Source: a virus. Taken from it: a DNA stretch of 64,000 bases. The DNA is taken from IMG/VR virus record IMGVR_UViG_3300020411_003715, positions 32,001-96,000 of that record; one strand, given 5' to 3'. Every line of letters starts with the position of its first letter. Within the stretch, counting starts at the first letter, position 1. Positions 6,842 through 18,087 of the stretch are shown here, one piece after another. The translations under genes were made by a program, and so were the position numbers. The notes below the pieces were generated by a model that saw nothing but the letters and a program-made list of their open reading frames with translations, was not told the DNA's origin and searched no databases.

Positions 6842-7264
6842 TTATCCTCTCGCAAGGACAACAAGCTTACCACCTTCCTCTTTAACCTTGGCAGTCAGCC
6901 CCTGACTTTTTAAAGCCTTCTGTGCTTTTAGGGCGCTATACCATTGGTTTACAGATTGTGAGAAGCTTTCAGATGCGCTGGTCTCTCTTACAAGACCACC
7001 TCGGTCATCCATGTCATCGACATGAATCCCATAGGTACCGTCAGGGTTTTTTGAAAACCCAAAACCTGAGTACCCGTTGTGGAAGTCCTTCTCTACCAGG
7101 ATATCGACCTCCGCTTTTGCGGATGAGTAGTATCCCTGAAGAGTGAGAGTCTTCCCTTCTTCCGCAACCTGAATCATAGAGGCCGGAACCCCCAGCTTCT
7201 TCAGAGCGGATAGAACAGTCTTCTTGTCTTTCATGCAAGACTTGCATGTTACTAAGTGCGACAT
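6842..7264 (-). CDS. DUF1257 (Ycf35-like) protein
   Basis: N-terminal MSH..C...KDKKTVLSALKKLG and GF-x-K..DGTY.I..D motifs; C-terminal Y..A..QG pattern; co-located with DUF2997 and Ycf46-type AAA. Confidence 0.8.
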   Translation of the reverse strand: MSHLVTCKSCMKDKKTVLSALKKLGVPASMIQVAEEGKTLTLQGYYSSAKAEVDILVEKDFHNGYSGFGFSKNPDGTYGIHVDDMDDRGGLVRETSASESFSQSVNQWYSALKAQKALKSQGLTAKVKEEGGKLVVLARG

Positions 7265-7267
7265 TTT

Positions 7268-7852
7268 TTACCCCTTGATCTCTTTGTTCAGTTCATAGCG
7301 AAGATCTTTTGAGGGGAAGCCAGCCACAGTGACAAGGTCATCATCAAGATGAACCTCAACCTGTGGAAGATCTTCCAGATCTTCTTCAGTTATTTTGTCC
7401 GACAGAAATATAAGCTCTTGGTTCGAAGACCCCCTTAAGGGTTCTTCACAGTGAAGCTCTTTTACGTATGGCCCCGCCACAACAAGGTCTAAAACGTCCC
7501 GCATCTTGCCCCAGCCATCATGCTCCTCTAGCTCGGCTAAAGACAGGCCGGTAAACATCAACCTGTTGATCCCCGCGTTCATCGCCTTAGTAAGACACAG
7601 AATCTGGTACACAGGAACCCACTGCTCCATAGGCTCCCCACCGCTTATTGTTATGCCGTCAGGGTTATCAGACGTAAGCTCTGTGTACACAGCGTGCCAT
7701 CTTCGGTCCTCGCCACCGGACTTTTTCCATGTGTGCGGATTAAAGCAACCCTTACACTTAATACTACAGCCCTGAAGATGGAGAACATTCCTTCTTCCGG
7801 GCCCGTTGACATAGCTTCCTTTGGTTACGGAGGATACTCTTACTGAACTCAT
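7268..7852 (-). CDS. Radical SAM protein, NrdG/activase-like (4Fe-4S single cluster)
   Basis: GPGRR..LHLQGCSIKCKGCFNP (CxxxCxxC), GITISGGEP, C-terminal LRGSSNQ. Confidence 0.85.
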   Translation of the reverse strand: MSSVRVSSVTKGSYVNGPGRRNVLHLQGCSIKCKGCFNPHTWKKSGGEDRRWHAVYTELTSDNPDGITISGGEPMEQWVPVYQILCLTKAMNAGINRLMFTGLSLAELEEHDGWGKMRDVLDLVVAGPYVKELHCEEPLRGSSNQELIFLSDKITEEDLEDLPQVEVHLDDDLVTVAGFPSKDLRYELNKEIKG

Positions 7853-8124
7853 TCTCCACCCACCATCTCCAAATGGTCCCCGAGGAACTCTTCCACGTCA
7901 GACCACGCCAGCCAAGACTCATGCGCTGGGTACGAGGGCTCATTTTCATTCGGGCCTACGAAAGGCCAGACATCTAAGGATATACCATCCTTGTTTACAA
8001 GCACCCCAATATCGGCAGAGGGCCCCCCACCAGGGCGAGTAACCTTTATCCACAGGCGCTCATCTCCATACGCCTCCGTTCTTACAAACTCTAAGTCGCC
8101 CACCTGGGCCAGCGCCATCTTCAT
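7849..8124 (-). CDS. Hypothetical protein
   Basis: 91-aa ORF overlapping its neighbours within the operon. Confidence 0.6.
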   Translation of the reverse strand: MKMALAQVGDLEFVRTEAYGDERLWIKVTRPGGGPSADIGVLVNKDGISLDVWPFVGPNENEPSYPAHESWLAWSDVEEFLGDHLEMVGGE

Positions 8125-8306
8125 TAGTTTTTCACGCTGTTAGAGTCAGTCTCGTAGTAAGAAGGCTTAAGCTCTTCCTTTAGGACTTCCCCTCCAAGGG
8201 CCTTGATGACTGCGTCGGTGTATTGTTTGCAGCCGGTCCCCTTAACCCCATTAACTTCAGTTTCTACCGACCCATCCTCATGGATCGTTACTTTGACTTC
8301 CACCAT
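8124..8306 (-). CDS. DUF2997 protein
   Basis: VTIHEDGSVETEVNGVKGTGCKQYT..LGG..EELKPSYYE is the characteristic family pattern. Confidence 0.85.
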   Translation of the reverse strand: MVEVKVTIHEDGSVETEVNGVKGTGCKQYTDAVIKALGGEVLKEELKPSYYETDSNSVKN

Positions 8307-9150
8307 TGTAGTACCTCCAGTACTTATTGAATTCGTTTTCGATCTGCTTTGCGGCCTCTAGATACCCAGGCCCTAGCGAAGACCCGTCTGGGCTCTTCAA
8401 ATAAGCGCCCGCTTGGGATAAAGTATTATTCGCTAATAGTGCGCGCATAAGCTCAAAACCTCTATTAAAACCTTCTTGGTTGAACAAGAACCCATAAGCT
8501 CTGTCGCTGGGTGGGCACACAAGAGATCTGTAAATGTTAAACCTTACTTTAAGGTAGGCTAACTTACCGTACTCATTTCGTGTCTGTTCTCTCAAGGTTC
8601 GTATGCGGACCGCACACAGTTTGTTTATGGTTCCTTCAAAAGAGGATCTGGGCTTTGGGACCAAATCATTTACCGCTACCCTTAGTTGATTCACCACTAT
8701 AACTAAGGAGTCTCTTTTTATGGCCTCCTCTCTGAGCAGGCTAAGGCCATGAAAAGCAGCCTTTCTTGATGCGAAGGGGACGAAATCTCCGACCCCTAAC
8801 GCTTTATCGCAAAGAGGCTCTGTTGCAGAAAGCGTATCAATAGCCACTACTCTGAATCCTTCTCTTAGCGCTTGGTACGCGGACTCTATGGCCGACTCCA
8901 TGCTGTCTGGGACTACGGATAGGAGGTTTTTTGGCCCAGCGGTTGTTATGTATCGCCTGTCTGGAAGTCCCTCAGTGTGAATTAGGGCAGTAGGGAGGCC
9001 CCCGAAAGAGGCCTCCCTCATCACACTTAAGCAGAGTGTTGATTTACCACTGGCGTCTTCGCCTATGATTTCACACACCCCGCTAGGTAGACCGCCCAGA
9101 AGGAATTCATCTAGTTGGTAAATACCTGTGCGATGTCGCCCGTTAAACAT
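8278..9150 (-). CDS. RecA/UvsX-like recombinase
   Basis: TGIYQLDEFLLGGLPSG..EIIGEDASGKSTL (Walker A), VVAIDTLSA (Walker B), VVNQLR. Confidence 0.8.
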   Translation of the reverse strand: MFNGRHRTGIYQLDEFLLGGLPSGVCEIIGEDASGKSTLCLSVMREASFGGLPTALIHTEGLPDRRYITTAGPKNLLSVVPDSMESAIESAYQALREGFRVVAIDTLSATEPLCDKALGVGDFVPFASRKAAFHGLSLLREEAIKRDSLVIVVNQLRVAVNDLVPKPRSSFEGTINKLCAVRIRTLREQTRNEYGKLAYLKVRFNIYRSLVCPPSDRAYGFLFNQEGFNRGFELMRALLANNTLSQAGAYLKSPDGSSLGPGYLEAAKQIENEFNKYWRYYNGGSQSNDP

Positions 9151-9157
9151 TAAGGGT

Positions 9158-10756
9158 TTACTCCGCCTTCTTCAGGTCGCCCCACCCGCCTGCTTTCTTA
9201 TCAGAAACCACTCGGGCAGTGCGCCTTTTGCTCTTGGAAGGACTCTTCTTTTTACTACTGTCCATCTCCTCGTTGGCTCGTAACGCTCGTCCGCTTGCCC
9301 ACTTCCGGAGAGACTCAATCCTCTTCTCCATCGTTACAGACAGCGGGACCGTTCTAGCTGCGGCAGACTCCATGTCCTCGATAGTCAATTCGCGGCCATT
9401 ATCAAAGGCGGCGTATAGACCATCAACGACAACCTGCTCAATCTCTGCGCCAGTAAAGGACTCCGTTGCTGACACAAGACTTTTGAGATCAAAGTTTTGA
9501 GGCTCTCTCCCCATTCGGTTTAGGTGAATCTTAAACACCTCTTCCCGATCGGAAGCATTTGGGAGGTCAACGAAGAATAGCTCGTCAAACCGACCCTTTC
9601 GGAGCATTTCAGGCGGAAGCGCTGAAACATCGTTTGCGGTAGCAACCACAAAAACCTGGGAAGTCTTTTCTGACATCCAGGAGAGAAAGCTACCAAAAAC
9701 ACGCGCAGACGTACCGCTATCATGTGATCCTTGAGCAGAACCAAAGCCCTTCTCGATCTCATCAATCCAAAGAACGCACGGAGAGATTGCTTCAGCAGTC
9801 TTGATGGCTTTTCGAAAATTCGCTTCCGATTGACCAACGTACTGCCCAAATAGAGCCCCAACATCCATACGTAGAACGGGCATATTCCAAGCAGCGCCGA
9901 TACACTTAGCAGTGAGCGACTTCCCTGTGCCCGGGATTCCTACAATCAAGACCCCCTTTGGGTGAGGTAGTCCGAATTTACGGGCATCTTCACTAAAGGC
10001 TTTTCCTCGCTGACCGAGCCAGCTTTTAAGAGTGACGAGCCCCCCAACGTCTTTCATCTCACGATCTACGTCATGGAATTGCAGCACACCGGACTTGCGT
10101 ATGATGTGCTTTTTCTCTTCCATAACAACTCGTGGGTCGAGGGTCTCACACTTAGCCAGAGATTTGGAGAATACGTTCTCTACCTCTCCGAGCGTAAGAC
10201 CGAGGGCTGCACGACAGCCAACACCCACTAATTGATCCTGCTCTTCTTTTGGGACAGCGTCCCCGAAAAAGTCATTCACAATTGGAGAGGTCCATACGCG
10301 AAGCTCATCGGCGCTTGGTAGATCAAAGTCCACAACAGACATAATCTTCTCAAGGCGTGGTGGGATTTTAAGCTCACTATCAATTATTACAATAGTAATA
10401 CCTGGGTTCATCGAAGACGTAAGGTCACGAAGCTTCCTTTGTACCGGATAGCATGGCCCCTCGTTCAACCAGTAACCGAAGTCCTTCAAAAGAAAAACCG
10501 CTGACTGGTCGTGATCCCCGATTTTATCCAGAATCTCTAGGGGTGTCTCGATGTCAGGAAAGTGATCTTTCCCGCAATAGGCACCCTCTGTAAAAGACCA
10601 AGTCCACAGTGCGGAGTTGGCTTCACTAAGTTTGTTCTTGCCCTCAACGATTCTGGACAAGGCTTGCGCAACCCGGTGTTCTTCGTGACTAACCACGTAA
10701 ACCACCGGGTGCGCTGCCCTGATCAGAACGTCGAGTTCTTCGACGCTTTGGTTCAT
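9158..10756 (-). CDS. Ycf46-type AAA+ ATPase
   Basis: Degenerate N-terminal AAA domain plus [18 protein letters not shown] (Walker A), LWIDEIEKG (Walker B), [21 protein letters not shown]. Confidence 0.9.
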
Positions 10757-11667
10757 TACTCTCCTACTCGAATGCGACGCTTGCGCTTCACAGTCTTCTT
10801 CTTAGAAGTGCTCGCCTCTTCCACTACAGGCTCCTCTTCGGAGTCGATAATGTTGAGAAGCTCTTCGGTTTCAAGCTCACAGAAGTACCATCGAACAACA
10901 CGATCGATAGCATCTCGATACTCTTTGTCGAGTTCTGTGTCCCGGTTGTTCGCGATATACGTACGAATCTCTTCCATCTCCTTCTTGGACCTGTAAGTCT
11001 TCGCCCGCTTCCGCTGCTTAGTCTCAGGAACCTCGTCCTTACCCATTCCGAGAATCTGCTCCAGGATCTCATCCTGTCCCTTCTCGTTCGGGGTGCCGTC
11101 TTGGTTGACAACCTTGGCCAGCTTTTTGGCCTGGGTCATCGTGATACGGCCATGACGAAGCGCCTCAAAGGCTACCGTGCTCAACCCCTTATAGGTTGAA
11201 CAAAGGACACTCACTTGAGGCTGCGAAATATTAAGCATGCTGGCGACCTTTTCCTGTGTGCCTACACGCTCATTAAGTCGATAAACAGCCTCACACTTAT
11301 CAGCAAAGTTCAACGTCTCGCGCTGAAGGTTCTCACTGATGTTTAGTGCGAGTGCGTCCTCAAGGTTACCATCGTGGACACCACAAGAAATGGTATCGAA
11401 AAACCCTCCGGTGTCACCACCACTGTCCAGACGCGTCTGACGTTCGTCAGCAATTGCCTGCATGCGGCGATAGCCCGCAACAAGGACTACCCGCTCCTCA
11501 CCATTAGCGTCAGTTGTGATGTGAACAATAGGAGGGTTCATCAAACCATCAGACACAATAGAGGCCTGAAGGTCTCTTGTGTCACCGATGTCGGACCGGC
11601 TATTCCTAAAGCCGAGCACATTCTTCTCAATCTTCTCAATAGGAAATGTTCGCTGTTCTAGCTGCAT
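10756..11667 (-). CDS. parB: ParB/Spo0J-like protein (ParB-N plus HTH)
   Basis: DLQASI..DGLMNPPIV..LVAGYRRMQA, NISENLQRETL, HTH TQEKVASMLNISQPQVS. Confidence 0.75.
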   Translation of the reverse strand: MQLEQRTFPIEKIEKNVLGFRNSRSDIGDTRDLQASIVSDGLMNPPIVHITTDANGEERVVLVAGYRRMQAIADERQTRLDSGGDTGGFFDTISCGVHDGNLEDALALNISENLQRETLNFADKCEAVYRLNERVGTQEKVASMLNISQPQVSVLCSTYKGLSTVAFEALRHGRITMTQAKKLAKVVNQDGTPNEKGQDEILEQILGMGKDEVPETKQRKRAKTYRSKKEMEEIRTYIANNRDTELDKEYRDAIDRVVRWYFCELETEELLNIIDSEEEPVVEEASTSKKKTVKRKRRIRVGE

Positions 11668-11770
11668 TTTCTTCTCCGTGTTGGTGTTCCTAACACCTGA
11701 ATCATCGTTTTGGGTTACCAGTAGTCAAAGTTTATAACCCGTAATATCTCCATGTAAATCGTGTCTATTG

Positions 11771-11886
11771 ATGACAATGTAGTTATTGTCAGTGACAGGT
11801 TTATTGTTGTCACCGAATAACTATTAAATTCAAACACTTACACAAAGGTGTCTTCTAGGGACGTGTGACAATAACTACTCTGTCAC
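11771..11886. repeat. Left array of three palindromic TGACA-N10-TGTCA boxes
   Basis: Boxes at 11772, 11793 (adjacent pair) and 11866. Confidence 0.9.
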
Positions 11887-11892
11887 CCCTGC

Positions 11893-12969
11893 CTAGTTCT
11901 TAGTCTTCGCTGCAATGTTTCTTCTTCTTCTCTTGGGAGCGCCTTCTGTGGCGACAGCTCCAGAAGTTCCCATATAGGTCTTTAGCGCTGCTGGGTCCCC
12001 TTCAACCTTAACTCCTGAGGAGGTCAGAATGATCTTTAACCCAGTAAGATTTACGACCACGTTATCCCCATGGACGCTGATCTTGCTTAGTGAAGGGAAC
12101 CATTGGCCAAGCTGACCAAGCTCATGACTGAGTGTTCCTATATGCGCTGGTATAGAGAAAGGATCTACTTGCTCAGAGTCTACTCTGAACTTATGAATGG
12201 CTTCCCTCTCAAACCTGGAAAAGTTTACTCTGTTTAGAGCATTGACTGCTGCATTGATTCGATCAGTCTCAGAAGATGCTCTTACGTAGTCAGTATCTCT
12301 TCCAACTTCCATACTCAGCTTATCAAGAAGCTTTGCTATTCCGCCTTGTCTATTTTTGACCTCTGAGATCATTTCTCTAAACCAAGCGAACTCTTTTAGT
12401 ACAGAGTCTAGATCTTCTTGAGTAAGAATCTTCAACTCACTTGTTACACTACAACGCTTCTCTCTGAGAGCTTGTATGTCAGAAATAAGCTTAGCTGAGT
12501 CTGTAACTAAAAGTTCTATCTCAGAAAGTAAGCTCTCCAGATTGACTTCATCTTTTTCAATTATACCCCCATTTGAGATAACTCGGCTAGAAAAGATTTT
12601 GAAGTCAGTCTTACTGATAGAGAAGTCTTGAAGACAAGATCTCATTTTTCTCACTAAGACTTGGGGGATGTTTCTAGCTATGTATGGTCTCAGACTCTTA
12701 AAAGAGTTTAATGAGACTAGGAAAGAAGCAGTGACAGAGTCCATAATTCTGAATGGCATATGTACATGAATCTCTCCTGTATTTGTTTCTTTCCATAAGT
12801 AAACATGACCTTTTTCAACAGGCGTAAGGTCATCGTCGTAAAAGGCTGCCTCTTCTGGATCAGATGGGTCACAGAATAAGTTCTCTGAATATGTAGAGGT
12901 CTTCTTCGTAACCAGCCCCTTTACCAGAATCGGTGGATCAACCCTATCGTTGGTTAGTCGTAGTTCCAC
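11893..12969 (-). CDS. Orphan coiled-coil protein in an AT-rich segment
   Basis: GTG start with AGGAG SD; 358 aa; visibly more AT-rich than flanks; basic tail PKRRRR. Confidence 0.75.
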   Translation of the reverse strand: MELRLTNDRVDPPILVKGLVTKKTSTYSENLFCDPSDPEEAAFYDDDLTPVEKGHVYLWKETNTGEIHVHMPFRIMDSVTASFLVSLNSFKSLRPYIARNIPQVLVRKMRSCLQDFSISKTDFKIFSSRVISNGGIIEKDEVNLESLLSEIELLVTDSAKLISDIQALREKRCSVTSELKILTQEDLDSVLKEFAWFREMISEVKNRQGGIAKLLDKLSMEVGRDTDYVRASSETDRINAAVNALNRVNFSRFEREAIHKFRVDSEQVDPFSIPAHIGTLSHELGQLGQWFPSLSKISVHGDNVVVNLTGLKIILTSSGVKVEGDPAALKTYMGTSGAVATEGAPKRRRRNIAAKTKN

Positions 12970-12994
12970 AGGTTCTCCTAAGATGTGTGATAGC

Positions 12995-13110
12995 GTGACA
13001 AGTTATTCTCTGTCACCATGCTTATACCACAAATGTTTGTTAACTAGCTGTAATCACTGGATTACATGTGACAGGATAGAGTCTGTCACTGACAACAACT
13101 AGTCTGTCAC
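12995..13110. repeat. Right array of three palindromic TGACA-N10-TGTCA boxes (mirror of left array)
   Basis: Boxes at 12996, 13069 and 13090. Confidence 0.9.
13020..13028 (-). promoter_or_regulatory. GGTATAAG promoter-like motif
   Basis: One of about nine intergenic copies oriented toward gene starts (see findings). Confidence 0.55.
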
Positions 13111-13163
13111 TATTAGTGATCTATGTATACAGATCAATACATAGCATATCAAGGATTAGTTGT

Positions 13164-13532
13164 TTAATCGGAACCCGCTGTGAGATAGCTTAGGTCTGGG
13201 AGCCTCATCTCTGGGTCCGTGTCTGTGCGCTGAATCTTTCTTCTCTCCTCACGAACTCGTTTGTCATGAGACATGAGCATGCACTCAGCATCTACTCGGA
13301 TATGTCGAGGGTCTCCGCCCTGGCAAATCCTTACCCGGTCCCCGTCATGTAAGACTATGACCGGATCACCGGACAGCACGTGGGGGAGCTTGACAAAACT
13401 TAGGGCGGACATCGGGTGGGCATACCGCAGGTGTCTTGGGGTGAATTTGTTTGTCGAGAATTTTCCGTCCACGGCGTCAACTGACACCCGCGACCCCTCG
13501 AATAGCCACCGTATTTGTCTTATGTCTATCAC
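13164..13532 (-). CDS. Hypothetical protein
   Basis: 122-aa ORF in operon orientation. Confidence 0.55.
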   Translation of the reverse strand: MIDIRQIRWLFEGSRVSVDAVDGKFSTNKFTPRHLRYAHPMSALSFVKLPHVLSGDPVIVLHDGDRVRICQGGDPRHIRVDAECMLMSHDKRVREERRKIQRTDTDPEMRLPDLSYLTAGSD

Positions 13533-13580
13533 ACAGTAATAATAGCAGTGTCCGGGTTTGCTTAGAACTCTTGGTTTAAA

Positions 13581-13606
13581 TAAAAAGGAGAGGATAACCC
13601 CCTCCT
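13581..13606 (-). terminator. Intrinsic terminator
   Basis: Minus strand AGGAGGGG-GTTAT-CCTCTCCT followed by a T tract; one G.U pair fits the minus orientation. Confidence 0.6.
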
Positions 13607-13646
13607 AGGCGACTACACCCCCTTTCGGGGGTGCGTCACCAAAAGG

Positions 13647-14372
13647 CTACTTAGTAGCCGAGACCTTCTTTTTCTTACGGGACCGACGGACCCGCTGAAA
13701 CCGAAGGCCTGCTTCGGACATGAGCTTGACGTGAGCCCACGGAAGAGCGCTAGTAAGCGCAACCCTCTCACTCTCGTCATCCCATTCCCCCTCGACAACC
13801 TTTGCGTAGCTTGGCTGTACGTGCTTGGCCATGAACTCTTTGATGTCCACGGTAAACCGCAAGCCTCGACTAGCCGCAAAGCTGACAAGGTAAGCAGGGA
13901 CTTGGAGAAGAGCCATGAGGTCCTTGTCCTCATTTGTCATCTCCCCAACGAGGACCTTAAGCCCTGTATCCCTTTCGAGAACAGAGATCATCTCCTCATT
14001 CTTCTCAAGCCCAACGAGCATGATCGCCGAGCTTACAAATGCTCGGATAAACTCTGCTCGGGACTTTGCCTTCTCCTCGACAGAGGGCTTCTTGGTGCCT
14101 CGGCCCCATCCACCTTGGCAGATGAAGTTCATTGCACCGCTTCCGTCGAAGTACCCATTGGTCTCAAGCTGGAAGGCGTACTTACAACGCATTCCACTCT
14201 CCGAGACCGGGTTACCGACATAGGAGACGGAACCATCTCCGTTCTCCCGCTTCAGCAACTCGGTTACCGTTTTGTTGTACGTGATCGTGATCACGTCGGG
14301 AGCACGCTTAGGATCAATAAGGCTTTGCATTGGGAGACCAGACGCCCAACTTTTCTTAGTATCAAAACTCAT
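13647..14372 (-). CDS. Hypothetical protein directly downstream of E1
   Basis: 241 aa, GGAGG SD, basic tail RRSRKKKK. Confidence 0.7.
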   Translation of the reverse strand: MSFDTKKSWASGLPMQSLIDPKRAPDVITITYNKTVTELLKRENGDGSVSYVGNPVSESGMRCKYAFQLETNGYFDGSGAMNFICQGGWGRGTKKPSVEEKAKSRAEFIRAFVSSAIMLVGLEKNEEMISVLERDTGLKVLVGEMTNEDKDLMALLQVPAYLVSFAASRGLRFTVDIKEFMAKHVQPSYAKVVEGEWDDESERVALTSALPWAHVKLMSEAGLRFQRVRRSRKKKKVSATK

Positions 14373-14406: not shown

Positions 14407-15072
14407 TTAAGCGGTCCGGTTCAACCTCCAGTTTGTAAAGTCAATCTCTACAACCTTGAAGTTGATCGGCTCGCAAATAACACTCTTTGCCACGGCAGAG
14501 CAGATAAGCGAAGCCAGCCCGTATGCGCAGAAAATGGTAGCTTTCTCCGTACACGGAAGTGGCATAGCTTCTTCATCACTGAATAAACTTTTCTCATAGT
14601 TTTCGACAGTTTCGCGATCCCCCTTATCTACAAAGAAAACCTGTCCAAAACGCGCAGCCATTCGACCGTCAATAAAGAATCTTGCTGACGGGCTCATGAG
14701 AAATGATTCGAAGATGGCCTTCCTGGAAGACATGCTGTCCACTGCGGACACTACGTAGGTTTCTTCAAACGTGTGACCCTCTTCGACTCTAGCAAATTCA
14801 GCGATAATTTCAGCGCCAGTCCCTTCGGATAAACGCTTAGCTAAGGCTTCAACTTTCTTATACCCAATTTCTGGTATGAAATAGCCTTGGTTGGCTAGGT
14901 TATGGGACTCTACCGTGTCGTCATCAAAGACCTTGATTCTTCGAACACCCATTTTAGTTAGCGTCTCGACGGTGTGGGAGCCGATAGCCCCAGCACCGAC
15001 AACGCCTACAGTGATGTTATTGATTAGGCCATCAGGAATAATCCCTGATTGCCGAGTAGTATCGATCATCAT
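14407..15072 (-). CDS. E1-like (ThiF/MoeB family) Ubl-activating enzyme
   Basis: VGVVGAGAIGS, DDDTVESHNLANQ, KKVEAL, SAVDSMSSRK, FIDGRM, candidate catalytic Cys in PLPCTEKAT; TAATG coupling to the JAB stop. Confidence 0.9.
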   Translation of the reverse strand: MMIDTTRQSGIIPDGLINNITVGVVGAGAIGSHTVETLTKMGVRRIKVFDDDTVESHNLANQGYFIPEIGYKKVEALAKRLSEGTGAEIIAEFARVEEGHTFEETYVVSAVDSMSSRKAIFESFLMSPSARFFIDGRMAARFGQVFFVDKGDRETVENYEKSLFSDEEAMPLPCTEKATIFCAYGLASLICSAVAKSVICEPINFKVVEIDFTNWRLNRTA

Positions 15073-16133
15073 TAGCATACCCCCTTCTTCAAAAGCTCTG
15101 GATCGGTCATGTAGCCAAAGGCACTTTCCTCTTCCTCATCATCAAAACCCTCATCGACATCGAACTCTTCGTCCGATTTATCGTCGGGGTTCCCAACGAG
15201 CGTGTAGTTGTGAACCTCTTCAAGCTCCTGCTCCACCTCCTCGGTAGACAGCTCTTTAGCGCACCACTTTCCGAAAAGCTGAACGGCCTCGTTAGAGTCA
15301 ATATCCCCCCCATCATAAGCGTCTTGGAGGTGTACCAACTCATCCGGGAACTTAATGTCCTGGTCGTCGTAGCGATACTCGTACCCCCGGGTAGTTACCT
15401 CTTCTTCCGGAGCCTCTTCCTCTTCAACATCGCTTTCCCACATCCACCGGTTTCCGTGGAGGACACGGCTTCCGTTTGTTACGATTGGGCGAGAAGACCG
15501 ACTCCAGTCGGAGTACCCTGAGTACCAAGACTTATTCTTACCGGCACGCTTCACGGACGTAAGTGTTTCCACAGTCCGGGCAGACCGTGTCACATATTTT
15601 TCCACCATCTCTTCACCCCACCCATCCGGGAGGATGTTGATCTGGTCGACTGACCATGTGCACCTTTCAAAGGTCTGCCTAAACGGCTTAAACATTTCTA
15701 CACGAACATTAAGCTCGCGCTTCTTGTTAGCGATGATGAAGATACCAACGTCACCGAGAAGCTCGTTACCAGCAATAGTCTCAATCCACTGCTCATCTAC
15801 ACCTGACTGGGATACCCCCATATTCACGTGGCTGTGGAAGTGGACAGCCCTCCGCTTCCCAGGGTTCTCCCAGCCCTCATCCTTCAAGGACATAAGCTGG
15901 TCTGTCAGACCATCTGAGTCCATCTCAGTGTACGTTCCTGTACACGATTGAGAGGAGGGTCTGAACTCTGAGATATAGAAGTCCTCCTTAACGCCTGCCT
16001 TTTTCTTGTCTTCGTTGGTAGCCAAAAACCCCATTGCACTAATTTCGATGTCGCACGCATCTACTAAGGCAAACATTTGCTGATACGCACGAGTAGTAAA
16101 CCTAACTGTTGGTTTCGTCGTTGTTTTGGACAT
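15072..16133 (-). CDS. JAB/MPN (JAMM) isopeptidase with acidic C-terminal tail
   Basis: Upstream Glu in CDIEISAMG; HSH-x7-S-x2-D motif (HSHVNMGVSQSGVD). Confidence 0.85.
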   Translation of the reverse strand: MSKTTTKPTVRFTTRAYQQMFALVDACDIEISAMGFLATNEDKKKAGVKEDFYISEFRPSSQSCTGTYTEMDSDGLTDQLMSLKDEGWENPGKRRAVHFHSHVNMGVSQSGVDEQWIETIAGNELLGDVGIFIIANKKRELNVRVEMFKPFRQTFERCTWSVDQINILPDGWGEEMVEKYVTRSARTVETLTSVKRAGKNKSWYSGYSDWSRSSRPIVTNGSRVLHGNRWMWESDVEEEEAPEEEVTTRGYEYRYDDQDIKFPDELVHLQDAYDGGDIDSNEAVQLFGKWCAKELSTEEVEQELEEVHNYTLVGNPDDKSDEEFDVDEGFDDEEEESAFGYMTDPELLKKGVC

Positions 16134-17208
16134 TTGCTTCTTCTCCGTAAGTTTGGATTGTCTTTAATGCCTCTTCGGCCATACTTATAAACGGGACCAC
16201 CTCTGCCAGAACACACTGCCCATTCTTAGAGGAAGGGTGACTATTTCGGTGGTAGAGCATGCATTCTGAGTGCGTTAGTCCACACGCAGCCTTTTGCTGC
16301 TCTTCCGATTCCTTCGCACACTCCGGACAATTGAGCTTGAATTCGCTACTATGTCTTGGGCAGCTATGGTGATCCCATAGATTCTGGACACCCAAGTCCC
16401 TAAGCTTAATATAGGGGTCTGCGGGGTTATACGTACGAAGATATTCAGTCATTGTATAAATGACGTTTGCCACATCATAGGATCCCATATGCTCGATGAG
16501 CATACGCTCAACGTTTCCAAGACAGGGGTTACCCTCTGATTGAACGTGTGGATGGGCATACCCACGCACGCTAATATTATCCTCAAAAGGGATAACTTTG
16601 GCCTGGACTCTTCGATATCCGCCCGAGTAGTAAAACAAGACCGACACCTCGAACCTACCGAAAGAGTTAGGGAAGGACTCGGGCTTGAAACGCCTCTTTA
16701 TGTAGATGTCGTTAGTGAACCACTTTAGCGTAGTTCTTTTCTCCGCCTCATCATGACTAAACACAACAGGCTTTGTCCTATCTACATACTCCATAACGGA
16801 GCTGAGCATGAATGCCCTATTTTCTATTGATTGCTCAGTATAAAGCTCTTCGTGACGATTCCCGTAGGCCGCACTTTCATTAAGTTCTCTTTGAAGCTCG
16901 TCGCGAGTTGTTTTTACCTTGTAGAGAACATCTTGGTTGTTCATCAACTTACGTCTAGCGTCTGCCCAAGATTTCTTTCTCTTCTCAAGTCTTGCCCTGG
17001 CCAGATCAACAGACTTAGCTGTTTCCTCTAGAACTCTTGAGCGCTTGTTGAACTTTTCCTCTGCTGCTGAAATCTTGCTTGATAACTTTTTGATCTCTGA
17101 CTCAAGGGCTTGAATCTGTGCCTGATTTCTCTCACCAGAGGTCGCAACTATATTAGAAAGTAATTCTTTAATTTCCTGATCGCCCCGAAGCTCGATTGCG
17201 ATATCCAT
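16102..17208 (-). CDS. Coiled-coil, prokaryotic E2 (UBC-fold), Cys/His-cluster protein
   Basis: Start MDIAIEL at 17208 (AGGAGG SD); HPHVQSEGNPCLGN matches the E2 HPN..G.xCL active-site pattern (Cys codon 16522-16524); C-terminal CPRH..CPEC..C..H..C. Confidence 0.75.
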   Translation of the reverse strand: MDIAIELRGDQEIKELLSNIVATSGERNQAQIQALESEIKKLSSKISAAEEKFNKRSRVLEETAKSVDLARARLEKRKKSWADARRKLMNNQDVLYKVKTTRDELQRELNESAAYGNRHEELYTEQSIENRAFMLSSVMEYVDRTKPVVFSHDEAEKRTTLKWFTNDIYIKRRFKPESFPNSFGRFEVSVLFYYSGGYRRVQAKVIPFEDNISVRGYAHPHVQSEGNPCLGNVERMLIEHMGSYDVANVIYTMTEYLRTYNPADPYIKLRDLGVQNLWDHHSCPRHSSEFKLNCPECAKESEEQQKAACGLTHSECMLYHRNSHPSSKNGQCVLAEVVPFISMAEEALKTIQTYGEEANVQNNDETNS

Positions 17209-17224
17209 GCTTCCTCCTGGTAAC

Positions 17225-17257
17225 AAAAAAGGGGCGAAGTCAAAAAGACTCCGCCCC
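17225..17257 (-). terminator. Intrinsic terminator between Ubl and E2 genes
   Basis: Minus strand GGGGCGGAGTC-TTTTT-GACTTCGCCCC-TTTTTT; 11-bp stem with G.U only in the minus orientation. Confidence 0.8.
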
Positions 17258-17285
17258 TCTTAGTGGGTCTATGTTTGCTGTGTAT

Positions 17286-17738
17286 TTAGCAGGCGTTGCC
17301 GCCGGCCACTTTGCCCGAGATGAAGATCTCATGCTCACCACTACCAAGCTTTTCGTTGATATTGGTGATCTCTACCGTCTGACCTGGGCCGACGCGCTTC
17401 TTAAAGGTAAAACCATCAACAGCCCAATCAAGGGTTACCATCAGGTCTGCCAATGATGTGTCAGCAGGAACCTGGACGCACCGGTCACTCTTACCGCTTC
17501 GGATGAGAGAGACCACAGCGTTAGTATCGCTGTCTACAGGCGTAGCGACCTGGACGTTCAACTTAGCGGCTTCGGCAGCCTCGATTGCCGCCTTGCTGTC
17601 TGACACCATCTTCTGGAGCGCGGAAAGGCGATCCATATCCTGCTGGCAGAAATCATCGGCCATGGACTTAAGGTGGTCATCTCGCTGAGTAACAGCCTGT
17701 GCAAGCTCTTCTTTGAGTCGTGCTAGATTATCCGACAT
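17286..17738 (-). CDS. Ubiquitin-like protein (N-terminal coiled coil plus beta-grasp) ending in GG-NAC
   Basis: Start MSDNL at 17738 (AGGAG SD); C-terminal ~75 aa alternate beta/alpha segments; ends EIFISGKVAGG-NAC*; first gene of the E2-JAB-E1 run. Confidence 0.75.
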   Translation of the reverse strand: MSDNLARLKEELAQAVTQRDDHLKSMADDFCQQDMDRLSALQKMVSDSKAAIEAAEAAKLNVQVATPVDSDTNAVVSLIRSGKSDRCVQVPADTSLADLMVTLDWAVDGFTFKKRVGPGQTVEITNINEKLGSGEHEIFISGKVAGGNAC

Positions 17739-18087
17739 TAACATTCTCCTCTTCTTCCCAGGAATATCCCGGAAAGGTTTCTTCAATCTTTTTCGTTAGT
17801 TCTTCTAGATTTCCTCCCGACCACCAGATTACCGATTTCTGGTCGAAGTCAACGCGCATAGCTCCGCCTTTTGATAGGTCGGGCTCTTCGCTAGCGTTCT
17901 TGTTTTCTGTTGTGGCAGAGGCTGAGAATTCTAGGCATTTAACGCCCCCTGCTACATTTGGTGCTGGACCAAAGTAGGCGGTGACGTACCATCCTTTGAA
18001 TTTTCTATTCTTTACTATCTTTTGTTTGCCGAGGACGGCGAACTGTTCTTCCATCTGATTGAGGTAATCAGAGCTTTGCTTATCCAT
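17728..18087 (-). CDS. Hypothetical protein upstream of Ubl
   Basis: 119 aa; overlaps the Ubl start region. Confidence 0.65.
   Translation of the reverse strand: MDKQSSDYLNQMEEQFAVLGKQKIVKNRKFKGWYVTAYFGPAPNVAGGVKCLEFSASATTENKNASEEPDLSKGGAMRVDFDQKSVIWWSGGNLEELTKKIEETFPGYSWEEEENVNVG

What the first reader, a model, noticed from the sequence alone, without database searches (positions are those of the whole stretch)
11771..13110. Mirror-image arrays of six TGACA-N10-TGTCA palindromes bracket an AT-rich orphan gene next to parB
Seen: the left array has boxes at 11772, 11793 and 11866; the right array at 12996, 13069 and 13090. Start-to-start spacings are 21 then 73 on the left and 73 then 21 on the right, with a 51-nt gap in both arrays. 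The pair junction TGTCAGTGACA on the left is the reverse complement of TGTCACTGACA on the right, while the spacer sequences have diverged. Conserved geometry without conserved spacers suggests protein-binding sites under selection. The enclosed 358-aa gene is visibly AT-richer, and a GGTATAAG promoter-like motif lies inside the right array. Inference, alternatives: (a) three-site recombination or transposon ends (res-like I/II/III or Tn7/Mu-like multi-site ends) of a captured or invertible cassette; (b) parS-like or origin sites for the adjacent ParB; (c) looped operators.
Basis: partly seen in the sequence, partly recalled or inferred. Interest (0 to 1): 0.75.

Follow-up and report, generated by a model that had tools for sequence, protein, structure and literature searches.

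The report
Mirrored ParB-linked binding sites around gene
Six conserved protein-binding palindromes, three on each side in mirror image, bracket one unknown gene next to a ParB gene in a family of about 180-kb uncultured phages; they are most likely docking or operator sites for that ParB-family protein, an arrangement I did not find described.

Summary
TGACA-N10-TGTCA occurs six times in the window (0.05 expected). These are the only six copies in the whole 180,106-bp phage genome. They lie 21 then 73 bp apart on one side of a 358-aa gene and 73 then 21 bp apart on the other.

Thirteen related loci keep this 3+3 layout. The half-sites are conserved (consensus TGACAR-N8-YTGTCA) while the inner eight bases drift. 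More distant relatives keep mirrored arrays but use quite different palindromes, so the sites co-evolve with a phage-encoded binder.

The best candidate is the adjacent ParB/Spo0J-family protein (GYRR and ENLQRE motifs, an HTH, profile E 1.6e-13 to Spo0J). Two distant homologues of the enclosed gene that lack a ParB neighbour also lack arrays. The genome has no ParA and no tyrosine integrase, so a classical ParABS partition system is not supported.

One box sits at the predicted transcription start of the enclosed gene, just after a TGGTATAAG extended -10-like motif. I therefore read the cassette as ParB-linked operator or loading sites that loop or bridge. Binding was not shown.

Transposon, res-like and invertible-cassette readings are not supported. 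The gene's AT-richness is a family-wide trait, not a recent capture. This scan noted the same architecture before on another genome (e1-5704987).

The parts
13090..13109 (.). It is the outer member of the upstream pair, with its centre about 85 nt upstream of the predicted transcription start.
   Evidence: Exact TGACA-N10-TGTCA. The position is conserved in 13 relatives.
13069..13088 (.). Box U2, the inner member of the upstream pair, 21 bp from U1. Its centre is about 64 nt upstream of the predicted start.
13040..13048 (-). Conserved spacer element GCTAGTTAA (CTAsTTAC in relatives). A GTAAGT-like counterpart lies in the downstream spacer. Its role is unexplained.
   Evidence: Invariant columns in alignments A2 and A3 and the same element in L010, L025, L029, L031, L033 and L035.
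13021..13029 (-). TGGTATAAG, an extended -10-like promoter element of the enclosed gene, 5 nt upstream of box U3.
   Evidence: GGTATAAG is invariant in the four-phage alignment A2 and also present in further relatives. The genome holds 13 copies, against about 5.5 expected by my estimate, mostly in T-rich contexts. Related motifs also precede distant homologues of the enclosed gene in L039 and L040. It is a prediction; no transcript data exist.
12996..13015 (.). Box U3, the single inner box, 73 bp from U2. It covers about +1 to +20 of the predicted transcript and lies 26 nt before the start codon.
11893..12969 (-). Enclosed 358-aa gene (GTG start, AGGAGA ribosome-binding site). It has an N-terminal alpha/beta domain, a spectrin-like three-helix bundle, a small C-terminal beta domain and a basic tail. 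It is AT-rich with low GC3.
   Evidence: ORF; 79 representative clusters in the homology search; no Pfam, PHROG or NCBIfam family; AF2 mean pLDDT 90.9; fold searches; GC3 0.38 against 0.56-0.62 in its neighbours.
11866..11885 (.). Box D1, the single inner box, starting 7 nt after the stop codon of the enclosed gene.
11793..11812 (.). Box D2, the inner member of the downstream pair, 73 bp from D1.
11772..11791 (.). Box D3, the outer member of the downstream pair, 104 nt upstream of the ParB-like start codon.
10756..11667 (-). ParB/Spo0J-family gene (303 aa) with an N-terminal GYRR and ENLQRE nucleotide-pocket-like motif pair, an HTH (recognition helix SQPQVSV), a C-terminal domain and a basic tail. 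It is the best candidate binder of the boxes.
   Evidence: Pfam HTH_ParB and ParB_N, both weak; PHROG ParB-like families; phmmer alignments to Spo0J and Caulobacter ParB; family profile against PDB, Spo0J E 1.6e-13, plus Noc and CTP-bound ParB structures; TIGR00180 E 1.3e-10, below its cut-off.
13586..13606 (-). Intrinsic terminator-like hairpin plus T-run that closes the upstream Ubl-E2-JAB-E1-241aa operon, so the array and promoter begin a new transcription unit.
   Evidence: Equivalent hairpin plus T-run sequences lie directly before the upstream array in relatives.

Best explanation
The six palindromes are binding sites for a dimeric, sequence-specific DNA-binding protein encoded by the phage itself. 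The most likely binder is the adjacent ParB/Spo0J-family protein, which has no ParA partner in this genome.

The sites form two mirror-image, helically phased arrays (a pair plus a single box, 21 and 73 bp apart, roughly 2 and 7 helical turns). These clamp a conserved AT-rich gene of unknown function.

In this clade the upstream array encloses that gene's promoter. The single box covers the predicted transcription start and the pair sits at about -64 and -85. The downstream array lies between the gene's stop codon and the ParB-AAA(Ycf46-like)-RecA-like operon, with no terminator in between.

Proposed mechanism (inferred): the enclosed gene and the ParB operon are transcribed from the upstream promoter. 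ParB accumulates, occupies the boxes cooperatively on one face of the helix, and bridges or loops DNA within each array and possibly between the arrays. Mirror symmetry puts U1/D3, U2/D2 and U3/D1 in register in an antiparallel hairpin loop. The complex shuts the unit down, as in autoregulation by KorB, ParR or lambda CI. If ParB acts as a CTP-dependent clamp, the boxes would also be its loading sites and would concentrate it over the 1.1-kb interval.

Shown here: the sites, their exclusivity, their conservation, their covariation, their geometry, ParB-family membership, and co-occurrence of arrays with ParB. Inferred: who binds, the promoter and its start site, looping, repression, and any nucleotide dependence.
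For: - **Site statistics.** Six copies against 0.05 expected. They are exclusive to this locus in the own genome. In four relatives' 148-181-kb records the only exact copy elsewhere is one in G002; a fifth record (G005), whose boxes are degenerate, has none.
- **Conservation.** The same 3+3 layout occurs in 13 loci with 21-23 and 72-75 bp spacings. The half-sites carry 1.2-2.0 bits and the inner 8 nt carry at most 0.64 bit, over 66 boxes.
- **Covariation.** Distant relatives keep mirrored arrays with other palindromes: TCCAACA-N4-TGTTGGA, GCGGGACA-N4-TGTCCCGC, GTGGCAACA-N3/4-TGTTGCCAC and TGTCAAC-N5/6-GTTGACA. This points to a cognate phage-encoded binder rather than a host factor.
- **ParB is the only neighbour with a recognised sequence-specific DNA-binding domain.** Its family profile matches Spo0J, Noc and ParB structures. 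The HTH helix SQPQVSV is invariant in all 10 aligned TGACA-N10 phages, even where ParB identity falls to 51%, and it differs in clades with other boxes.
- **Arrays track ParB.** Two distant homologues of the enclosed gene whose neighbour is not ParB (L039, L040) have no arrays.
- **Promoter context.** An invariant TGGTATAAG lies 5 nt before box U3 and belongs to a genome-wide motif class. A terminator lies upstream of the array and none between the gene and ParB.
- **Phasing.** Within-array spacings cluster on multiples of about 10.5 bp (resultant 0.74), although these values are not phylogenetically independent.
Against: - No binding data exist, and the binder is inferred from adjacency and domain content.
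- The half-site centres are 14-15 bp apart, further than in canonical 16-bp parS.
- L032 (TGTCAAC) and L033/L029 (TGACAAC) carry the same ParB recognition helix (SQPNVSQ) although their boxes differ at one symmetric position.
- In L017 and L018 the promoter-like motif lies upstream of all three boxes, so overlap with the promoter is not the conserved feature.
- L015 and L036 have boxes only upstream.
- The closest architectural analogue, lambda OL/OR, encloses the gene of the binder itself. That analogy would point to the enclosed protein, whose fold is unassigned.
- The ParB_N Pfam hit is below its curated threshold (16.4 against 26.3 bits), and GYRR replaces the canonical GERR.
Confidence: 0.55

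Rival explanations
1. This is a lambda-immunity-like module. The enclosed 358-aa protein is itself the dimeric binder, and the mirrored 3+3 operators around its own gene mediate cooperative, looped autoregulation, as CI does at OL1-3 and OR3-1 around cI. ParB would be only a downstream regulated gene.
For: The architecture matches lambda closely (from established knowledge): three operators on each side in mirror order, outer pairs about two helical turns apart, an inner single site over the inward-facing promoter, and 1-2 kb between arrays. The boxes hug the gene tightly, 26 nt before the start codon and 7 nt after the stop. The protein has a basic C-terminal tail, and its N-domain gives weak hits to nucleic-acid-binding folds (XPB DRD, UvsW N-domain, MutS domain I; Z 4.4-5.6). 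The protein co-diverges with the boxes.
Against: No HTH, RHH or other recognised sequence-specific DNA-binding domain was detected. The fold hits are below meaningful thresholds. Homologues in L039 and L040 have no arrays at all. In L015 and L036 the boxes lie 300-600 nt upstream and on one side only.
Confidence: 0.18
2. This is a replication origin or partition centromere. The phased arrays act as iteron-like or parS-like sites that assemble an initiation or segregation complex on the AT-rich interval, comparable to incC-repA-incA next to par in P1 and F, or to the dyad-symmetric iterons of lambda ori inside gene O.
For: The site cluster is unique in the genome. The repeats are helically phased. 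The interval is AT-rich and conserved in all relatives. ParB and a RecA-like gene are adjacent. The palindromes are of parS type and ParB belongs to the Spo0J/Noc family.
Against: No ParA-type ATPase and no tyrosine integrase were found in the genome, and complete relatives have direct terminal repeats as packaged virulent-type genomes do. There is no GC-skew inflection at the locus; the extremes lie near 36, 87 and 157 kb of the genome, while the locus is at 43.8-45.1 kb. The AT-rich interval is coding sequence. No initiator-like fold was found.
Confidence: 0.12
3. The boxes act at the RNA level. U3 would form a stem-loop at the 5' end of the enclosed gene's mRNA and D1-D3 would form stem-loops at its 3' end, serving as stabilisers, processing sites or attenuators.
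For: U3 begins at the predicted +1 and D1 lies 7 nt after the stop codon. The predicted hairpins have -4.8 to -9.1 kcal/mol here and -10 to -20.6 kcal/mol in relatives.
Against: U1 and U2 lie upstream of the predicted promoter and downstream of a terminator. Within the TGACA clade the stem sequence itself is conserved, and single deviations (CGACA, TGCCA) are not compensated. The loops are long (8-10 nt) and unconserved. The fixed 21/73 bp helical phasing has no obvious meaning for RNA.
Confidence: 0.05
4. The arrays are ends of a mobile or invertible cassette (res-like, Tn7/Mu-like multi-site ends, or an invertase switch) that captured the AT-rich gene.
For: The arrays are inverted repeats of each other (49 nt at 71% here; 122 nt at 84% in L017; 203 nt at 79% in L018). 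The enclosed gene is compositionally deviant.
Against: The gene occupies the same place and orientation in all 18 ParB-linked loci, down to 24% protein identity. No empty site or inverted form was seen. No transposase or recombinase family or fold was found, and no tyrosine recombinase is present in the genome. All boxes have identical internal spacing, unlike res subsites I-III. No target-site duplication is visible at the outer edges. Low GC3 is shared by all relatives, so it is not a mark of recent capture.
Confidence: 0.03

Closest known systems
Bacteriophage lambda immunity region (OL1-OL2-OL3 ... cI rexAB ... OR3-OR2-OR1 with CI octamer/tetramer looping)
   Same: Both have three dyad-symmetric operators on each side in mirror order around a 1-2.4-kb gene-bearing interval. 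Neighbouring sites are about two helical turns apart. An inner site overlaps an inward-facing promoter. Both are unique in their genome.
   Different: Here the third site is 73 bp from the pair rather than adjacent. No CI-like HTH repressor is enclosed. There are no outward divergent early promoters on the upstream side. The candidate binder (ParB family) is encoded outside the bracket. The phage shows no lysogeny genes.
ParB-family DNA-binding regulators without a partition role at the site: KorB/OB operators of IncP plasmids and VirB/virS of Shigella (from established knowledge)
   Same: Both involve a ParB/Spo0J-fold protein with an N-terminal nucleotide pocket and an HTH, palindromic sites near promoters, action at a distance, and autoregulation of its own operon. 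For VirB, the regulated DNA is AT-rich.
   Different: KorB has a ParA partner (IncC) and 12 dispersed sites, and VirB uses one main site. Here there are six clustered sites in two mirrored arrays, no ParA, a different site sequence with a 14-15 bp half-site separation, and a phage context.
Centromere arrays that double as operators: parC of plasmid R1 (two blocks of five ParR iterons flanking the promoter) and parC1/parC2 of pB171 (from established knowledge)
   Same: Both have helically phased repeat blocks on both sides of a promoter core, arrays at both ends of a par unit, and a binder encoded downstream in the same operon that autoregulates.
   Different: Those repeats are direct, are bound by RHH proteins and are coupled to an actin-like or Walker-type motor. 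Here the sites are palindromes, the candidate binder is an HTH ParB, and no motor NTPase gene was found.
PRTRC (ParB-related, ThiF-related cassette) of plasmids and ICEs (NCBIfam TIGR03734 and TIGR03736)
   Same: Both show genomic linkage of a ParB-family protein with a ThiF-type E1 and associated Ubl/JAB-type genes. Both remain functionally uncharacterised.
   Different: Both hits are far below the curated cut-offs (27 against 278.6 bits and 61.3 against 144.75 bits). The other PRTRC proteins were not detected. I know of no arrays described for PRTRC.
Cluster O mycobacteriophages (Corndog group), 17-bp palindrome TGTTCGG-N3-CCGAACA (PMC4351075)
   Same: These are non-temperate phages with a ParB-like-domain gene, no parA, a homologous AAA ATPase (32% identity) and dyad-symmetric repeats predicted to bind a dimeric protein of unknown identity.
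   Different: There the phages carry 34 or more dispersed copies throughout the genome, mostly not at promoters. Here there are six copies confined to one mirrored cassette.

Membership tests
ParB/Spo0J/Noc protein family (the adjacent 303-aa protein) | Sequence homology across the N-terminal domain and the HTH DNA-binding domain | tested here: met
   The family profile A5 matches Spo0J 1vz0 at E 1.6e-13 (profile positions 14-193), H. pylori ParB 4umk at 1.8e-10, Noc 7ol9 at 5.2e-10 and further ParB-family structures. TIGR00180 gives E 1.3e-10 but is below its cut-off. The single-sequence Pfam hits are sub-threshold.
ParB/Spo0J/Noc protein family (the adjacent 303-aa protein) | Nucleotide (CTP) pocket motifs GxxRxxA (GERRxRA) and ENLQRxxL | tested here: inconclusive
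   AGYRRMQA aligns with vAGERRwrA of Caulobacter ParB, and ENLQRETLN aligns with ENvQRadLN. The two arginines are kept, but the glutamate is replaced by tyrosine. CTP binding and hydrolysis cannot be tested with these tools.
ParABS partition system | A cognate ParA (Walker/deviant Walker ATPase) partner | tested here: not met
   No PF13614 or PF01656 match in the complete 180-kb genome, although all 14 control genomes were positive. The neighbouring ATPase is a Cdc48/FtsH-type AAA.
ParABS partition system | Palindromic parS sites close to parB that ParB binds | not testable with these tools
   Palindromes adjacent to parB exist and co-occur with ParB. Their sequence differs from canonical parS as I recall its consensus, which was not compared here, and binding needs an experiment.
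Lambda-type looped immunity operators | Mirrored triple operators flanking the gene of an HTH repressor that binds them | tested here: inconclusive
   The mirrored 3+3 geometry is met. The enclosed protein shows no HTH or other recognised DNA-binding domain in Pfam, PHROGs, NCBIfam or fold searches, but absence from a search is not proof.
Tn3/gamma-delta res sites or multi-site transposon ends | An associated serine/tyrosine recombinase or transposase, and presence/absence or inversion polymorphism | tested here: not met
   The enclosed and flanking proteins match no recombinase or transposase family. No PF00589 match in the genome. Position and orientation are constant in 18 loci.
Tn3/gamma-delta res sites or multi-site transposon ends | Three subsites with different internal spacings (res I, II, III) | tested here: not met
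   All six boxes have the same N10 spacing, as do 66 boxes in 11 phages.
Iteron-type replicon (P1/F: iterons-rep-iterons) | A Rep initiator (winged-helix pair) between arrays of directly repeated iterons, with an AT-rich unwinding element | tested here: inconclusive
   The sites are palindromes, not direct repeats. The enclosed protein's model is a beta/alpha domain plus a three-helix bundle with no listed Rep match. There is no GC-skew inflection. An AT-rich interval is present.
PRTRC cassette | ParB and ThiF components scoring above the curated NCBIfam cut-offs | tested here: not met
   TIGR03734 gives 27 bits against a cut-off of 278.6. TIGR03736 gives 61.3 bits against 144.75.

The most novel reading that the evidence does not exclude
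A ParA-less phage ParB uses two mirror-image loading arrays to build a small, insulated ParB-DNA domain over a single AT-rich gene. The domain is a bridged hairpin loop with U1/D3, U2/D2 and U3/D1 in register. It acts as a timing switch or DNA anchor for the linked Ubl-E1/E2/JAB and Cdc48-like AAA/RecA-like machinery. That would be a new, non-segregational use of the ParB clamp in a virulent phage, and a first functional handle on PRTRC-like ParB-ThiF cassettes.
Probability: 0.25. Interest if true: 0.8.

Novelty: new variant of a known kind. Interest (0 to 1): 0.6.

Why it matters
ParB-family proteins are now seen as CTP-gated DNA clamps whose roles reach beyond chromosome segregation (KorB, Noc, VirB). 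Phage ParB-like genes without ParA are common and almost entirely unexplained.

This locus offers a compact, conserved and naturally varied system. It has six sites, fixed geometry, one candidate binder, and several specificity variants among relatives. With it, one could test how a ParA-less phage ParB recognises DNA and whether it loops or spreads.

It could also show how such a ParB controls neighbouring genes, including an unusual phage-borne ubiquitin-like conjugation operon and a Ycf46-type AAA module. The natural box variants paired with variant HTH helices amount to a ready-made specificity-swap experiment.

Tried and rejected
- **Search for a named relative.** Megablast of the locus and tblastn of the enclosed protein against GenBank phages found nothing. 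The AAA ATPase has only distant (about 32%) relatives in cultured phages.
- **Enclosed protein, family searches.** Pfam, PHROGs and NCBIfam gave no family, either for the protein or for 59 aligned homologues. The ESM Atlas gave no usable hit.
- **Enclosed protein, fold searches.** Foldseek and VIA-align on the whole model returned only spectrin-like three-helix bundles. The N-domain folded alone gave at best Z 6.0 (ACT-like) and Z 4.4-5.6 (XPB DRD, UvsW N-domain). I treat these as non-diagnostic.
- **Known RNA families.** An Rfam scan of 11400-13800 gave only chance-level hits at the terminator.
- **Origin test.** The GC skew follows transcription direction and shows no inflection at the locus.
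- **Sigma-70 consensus scan.** It did not exceed shuffles in the region (4 sites against 3.0 expected), so the ParB-proximal promoter remains undefined.
- **Host factor as binder.** Rejected because the box sequence changes completely between related phages.
Not found. The 122-aa ORF has no family hit and is absent from most relatives.
- **Literature.** Searches for the ParB, ThiF/PRTRC and Ycf46/DUF2997 modules found no functional study of this arrangement.
Full report
**1. The observation**

The window is bases 32001-96000 of a 180,106-bp IMG/VR virus record rated 100% complete. TGACA-N10-TGTCA occurs exactly six times in the window, at 11772, 11793, 11866, 12996, 13069 and 13090. Dinucleotide-preserving shuffles give a mean of 0.05, and none of 100 shuffles reached six.

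These are the only exact copies in the whole genome. Outside the locus there are eight one-mismatch sites, roughly what I estimate chance would give (about 5), and no other spacing of the two half-sites is enriched.

The enclosed ORF (11893-12969, minus strand, 358 aa) has 41.9% GC against a genome mean of 50.9%. That places it in the lowest 0.4% of equal-length windows. One small correction: the gap is 53 nt between 20-bp boxes, and 51 nt only for 22-bp boxes.

**2. Local anatomy**

All genes in this region are on the minus strand. In transcription order they are as follows.
- A Ubl-E2-JAB-E1(ThiF) operon plus a 241-aa gene, closed by a terminator-like hairpin with a T-run at 13606-13586 (and earlier notes e1-5770721 and e1-5770726).
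- A 122-aa accessory ORF.
- Boxes U1 and U2 (13109-13069).
- A 53-nt spacer ending in TGGTATAAG (13029-13021).
- Five nucleotides later, box U3 (13015-12996).
- An AGGAGA ribosome-binding site and a GTG start at 12969.
- The enclosed gene.
- Seven nucleotides after its stop, box D1 (11885-11866), a 53-nt spacer, then boxes D2 and D3 (11812-11772).
- After 104 nt, a ParB-like gene (11667-10756), followed by a Ycf46/Cdc48-type AAA ATPase, a RecA-like gene and further genes.

No terminator is predicted between the enclosed gene and parB. If TATAAG is a -10 element, the transcript starts within the first bases of U3. That puts U3 at about +1 to +20, U2 centred near -64 and U1 near -85.

GGTATAAG occurs 13 times in the genome (I estimate about 5.5 by chance), mostly after T-rich stretches. 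Related motifs also precede distant homologues of the enclosed gene. It therefore looks like a promoter class of this phage group. This is a prediction only.

**3. Comparative evidence**

Relatives were recovered through the ParB-like protein and through homologues of the enclosed protein. The synteny ThiF, a roughly 240-aa gene, the enclosed gene, ParB, AAA and RecA-like holds in every locus in which ParB is present. It holds down to 24% identity of the enclosed protein, on contigs of 150-190 kb.

In 13 loci the 3+3 architecture is retained, with spacings of 21-23 and 72-75 bp. Over 66 boxes from 11 phages, positions 1-6 and 15-20 carry 1.2-2.0 bits, the inner eight positions at most 0.64 bit, and the flanks at most 0.53 bit. 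The consensus is TGACAR-N8-YTGTCA.

Four relatives' 148-181-kb records carry their exact boxes at this locus, with one stray copy in G002. A fifth record (G005), whose boxes are degenerate, has no exact copy.

More distant relatives keep mirrored arrays built from other palindromes.
- TGTCAAC-N5/6-GTTGACA in L032.
- TGACAACC-N4-GGTTGTCA in L029 and L033.
- TCCAACA-N4-TGTTGGA in L017, with spacings 21/63.
- GCGGGACA-N4-TGTCCCGC in L018, with spacings 78/73.
- GTGGCAACA-N3/4-TGTTGCCAC in L016, arranged 2+1 with one further degenerate copy downstream.

These are documented. In L017 and L018 the entire arrays, spacers included, are inverted repeats of each other (122 nt at 84% and 203 nt at 79%). 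Two high-GC relatives (L015, L036) have two or three long palindromes on the upstream side only.

Conserved geometry with a changing sequence is the signature of sites that co-evolve with a cognate phage-encoded protein. It rules out a host factor and rules out chance.

**4. Who binds**

The 303-aa neighbour is a genuine ParB/Spo0J/Noc-family protein. A profile of 11 orthologues matches Spo0J (1vz0) at E 1.6e-13 across the N-terminal and HTH domains. It also matches Helicobacter ParB, Noc and further ParB-family structures.

AGYRRMQA and ENLQRETLN align with the GERRxRA and ENxQRxxL pocket motifs. The HTH recognition helix SQPQVSV is invariant in all 10 aligned TGACA-N10 loci, even where ParB identity is 51%. 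It differs in the clades with other boxes: SQPNVSQ, SQENVSV, SQSWVSQ, SQGSVSQ and SQPWVSN.

It is the only protein in the neighbourhood with a recognised sequence-specific DNA-binding domain. The enclosed protein, by contrast, gave nothing diagnostic.
- It has no Pfam, PHROG or NCBIfam family.
- Its confident AF2 model (mean pLDDT 90.9) matches only spectrin-like three-helix bundles for residues 144-264 (Z about 12, in the range the tool notes as common for helical bundles).
- Its N-domain gives non-diagnostic hits (Z at most 6.0).

The most telling comparison comes from two distant homologues of the enclosed gene, L039 and L040. Their downstream neighbour is an RNA-polymerase alpha-CTD-like protein instead of ParB (a weak Pfam hit in L040; inferred from its C-terminal sequence in L039), and they have no arrays at all. 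So the arrays track ParB, not the enclosed gene.

There are caveats. This is two loci. L032 and L033/L029 share one recognition helix although their boxes differ at one symmetric position, so other residues would have to set that base. No binding has been measured.

**5. What it does**

The genome has no ParA-type ATPase (PF13614, PF01656) and no tyrosine integrase, with positive controls in all 14 reference genomes. Complete relatives carry direct terminal repeats. A classical ParABS plasmid-partition role is therefore not supported.

In this clade the upstream array brackets the promoter: a site on the start point and a pair one face-matched loop upstream. The downstream array precedes the ParB operon. 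That layout matches autoregulatory operator/centromere hybrids such as R1 parC/ParR and KorB/OB. Architecturally its nearest match is the mirrored OL1-3/OR3-1 operators that loop around lambda cI.

Mirror symmetry has a simple geometric consequence. In an antiparallel (hairpin or plectonemic) loop, U1/D3, U2/D2 and U3/D1 come into register, so bridged dimers could zip the two arrays together with the enclosed gene in the loop.

Promoter overlap is not conserved in L017 and L018, and the L015 boxes lie more than 300 nt upstream of the promoter-like motif. The conserved function is therefore more likely nucleation of a ParB-DNA complex, by loading, bridging or spreading, than simple steric occlusion. 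Repression would be one output of that complex. All of this is inference.

**6. Rejected or weaker readings**

- **Mobile or invertible cassette.** The gene is always present, always in the same place and always co-oriented with parB. No recombinase was detected. The box spacing is uniform. The low GC3 (0.32-0.45 against 0.47-0.68 in the neighbours) is shared by all relatives of moderate GC and is still relatively low in the high-GC ones. It is therefore an old, maintained property, not evidence of capture.
- **Origin or centromere.** Not excluded, but without support from skew or from gene content.
- **RNA hairpins.** The transcribed boxes could form stem-loops (-4.8 to -9.1 kcal/mol here). 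However, U1 and U2 lie outside the predicted transcript, deviations in the stems are uncompensated, and the helical phasing argues for recognition at the DNA level.

**7. Relation to known systems and novelty**

The ParB and ThiF proteins give sub-threshold hits to the PRTRC (ParB-related, ThiF-related cassette) models. This places the locus near a recurrent but uncharacterised association. By the curated cut-offs it is not a member.

Cluster O mycobacteriophages combine a homologous AAA ATPase, a ParB-like gene, no parA, and 34 dispersed 17-bp palindromes of unknown binder (PMC4351075). That is a looser parallel.

I found no description of mirrored parS-like arrays bracketing a gene beside a ParA-less phage ParB. 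An earlier first-stage note of this scan recorded the same architecture on another genome (e1-5704987), without follow-up.

I class the finding as a new variant of a known kind (ParB/operator-type site arrays). It is well documented by comparative evidence, but the binder and the function are still inferred.

Noticed in passing
window 13164-13532 (-): A 122-aa ORF sits in a roughly 430-bp stretch between the upstream terminator and box U1. It is present only here and in the closest relative L014 (117 aa, 54% identity, E 5e-43) and is absent from L005-L007 and others. It has no family hit and is not repeated elsewhere in the genome. It looks like a small accessory gene inserted at the edge of the array.
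   Followed up: partly
window 13647-14372, 11893-12969 and 10756-11667 (all -): Three consecutive proteins (241 aa, 358 aa, ParB-like) each end in a short, strongly basic tail (RRSRKKKK..., KRRRRNIAAKTKN, KRKRRIRVGE). The tails of the 358-aa and ParB-like proteins are conserved in relatives. This may be a shared DNA-binding or targeting signal.
   Followed up: no
whole genome, e.g. window 13021-13028, 14864, 24885, 28517, 44761, 58718: GGTATAAG, often as T-rich-N-GGTATAAGC, occurs 13 times (about 5.5 expected by my estimate). Related motifs are conserved upstream of distant homologues in other phages. It is probably a promoter class of this phage group, with a non-canonical final G in the -10 element and no clear -35.
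   Followed up: partly
window 11893-12969 and orthologues in L005-L036: The enclosed gene has markedly lower GC3 than its neighbours in every relative, including the high-GC phages (0.77-0.78 against 0.83-0.93). This is a maintained compositional anomaly of unknown cause. Possible causes are codon-usage control, DNA flexibility or unwinding between the arrays, or targeting by silencers.
   Followed up: partly
L039:2663-2998 and L040:4163-4672: In two distant lineages the homologue of the enclosed gene is followed by a protein resembling the RNA-polymerase alpha C-terminal domain (a weak Pfam hit in L040; inferred from the sequence in L039), not by ParB. This hints that the enclosed protein family works with DNA- or transcription-associated partners.
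   Followed up: no
window 13040-13048 and about 11835-11842; relatives in A2 and A3: A conserved element sits in the middle of both spacers: CTAsTTAC upstream, with the roughly mirrored GTAAGT downstream. It is not explained by a sigma-70 -35 at the right distance. It may be a bend site or a second protein's site.
   Followed up: no
L015:3430-4000 and L036:1500-1790: In the high-GC relatives, 300-600 nt of ORF-free sequence lie between the upstream palindromes and the enclosed gene. This may be a long leader or a non-coding RNA.
   Followed up: no
window 14407-17786 and 6842-10756: The cassette sits between a phage-borne Ubl-E2-JAB-E1 operon and a ParB-AAA(Ycf46/Cdc48-like)-RecA-like-DUF2997-radical SAM-DUF1257 operon. 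The ThiF and ParB proteins give sub-threshold hits to the PRTRC (ParB-related, ThiF-related cassette) models.
   Followed up: partly
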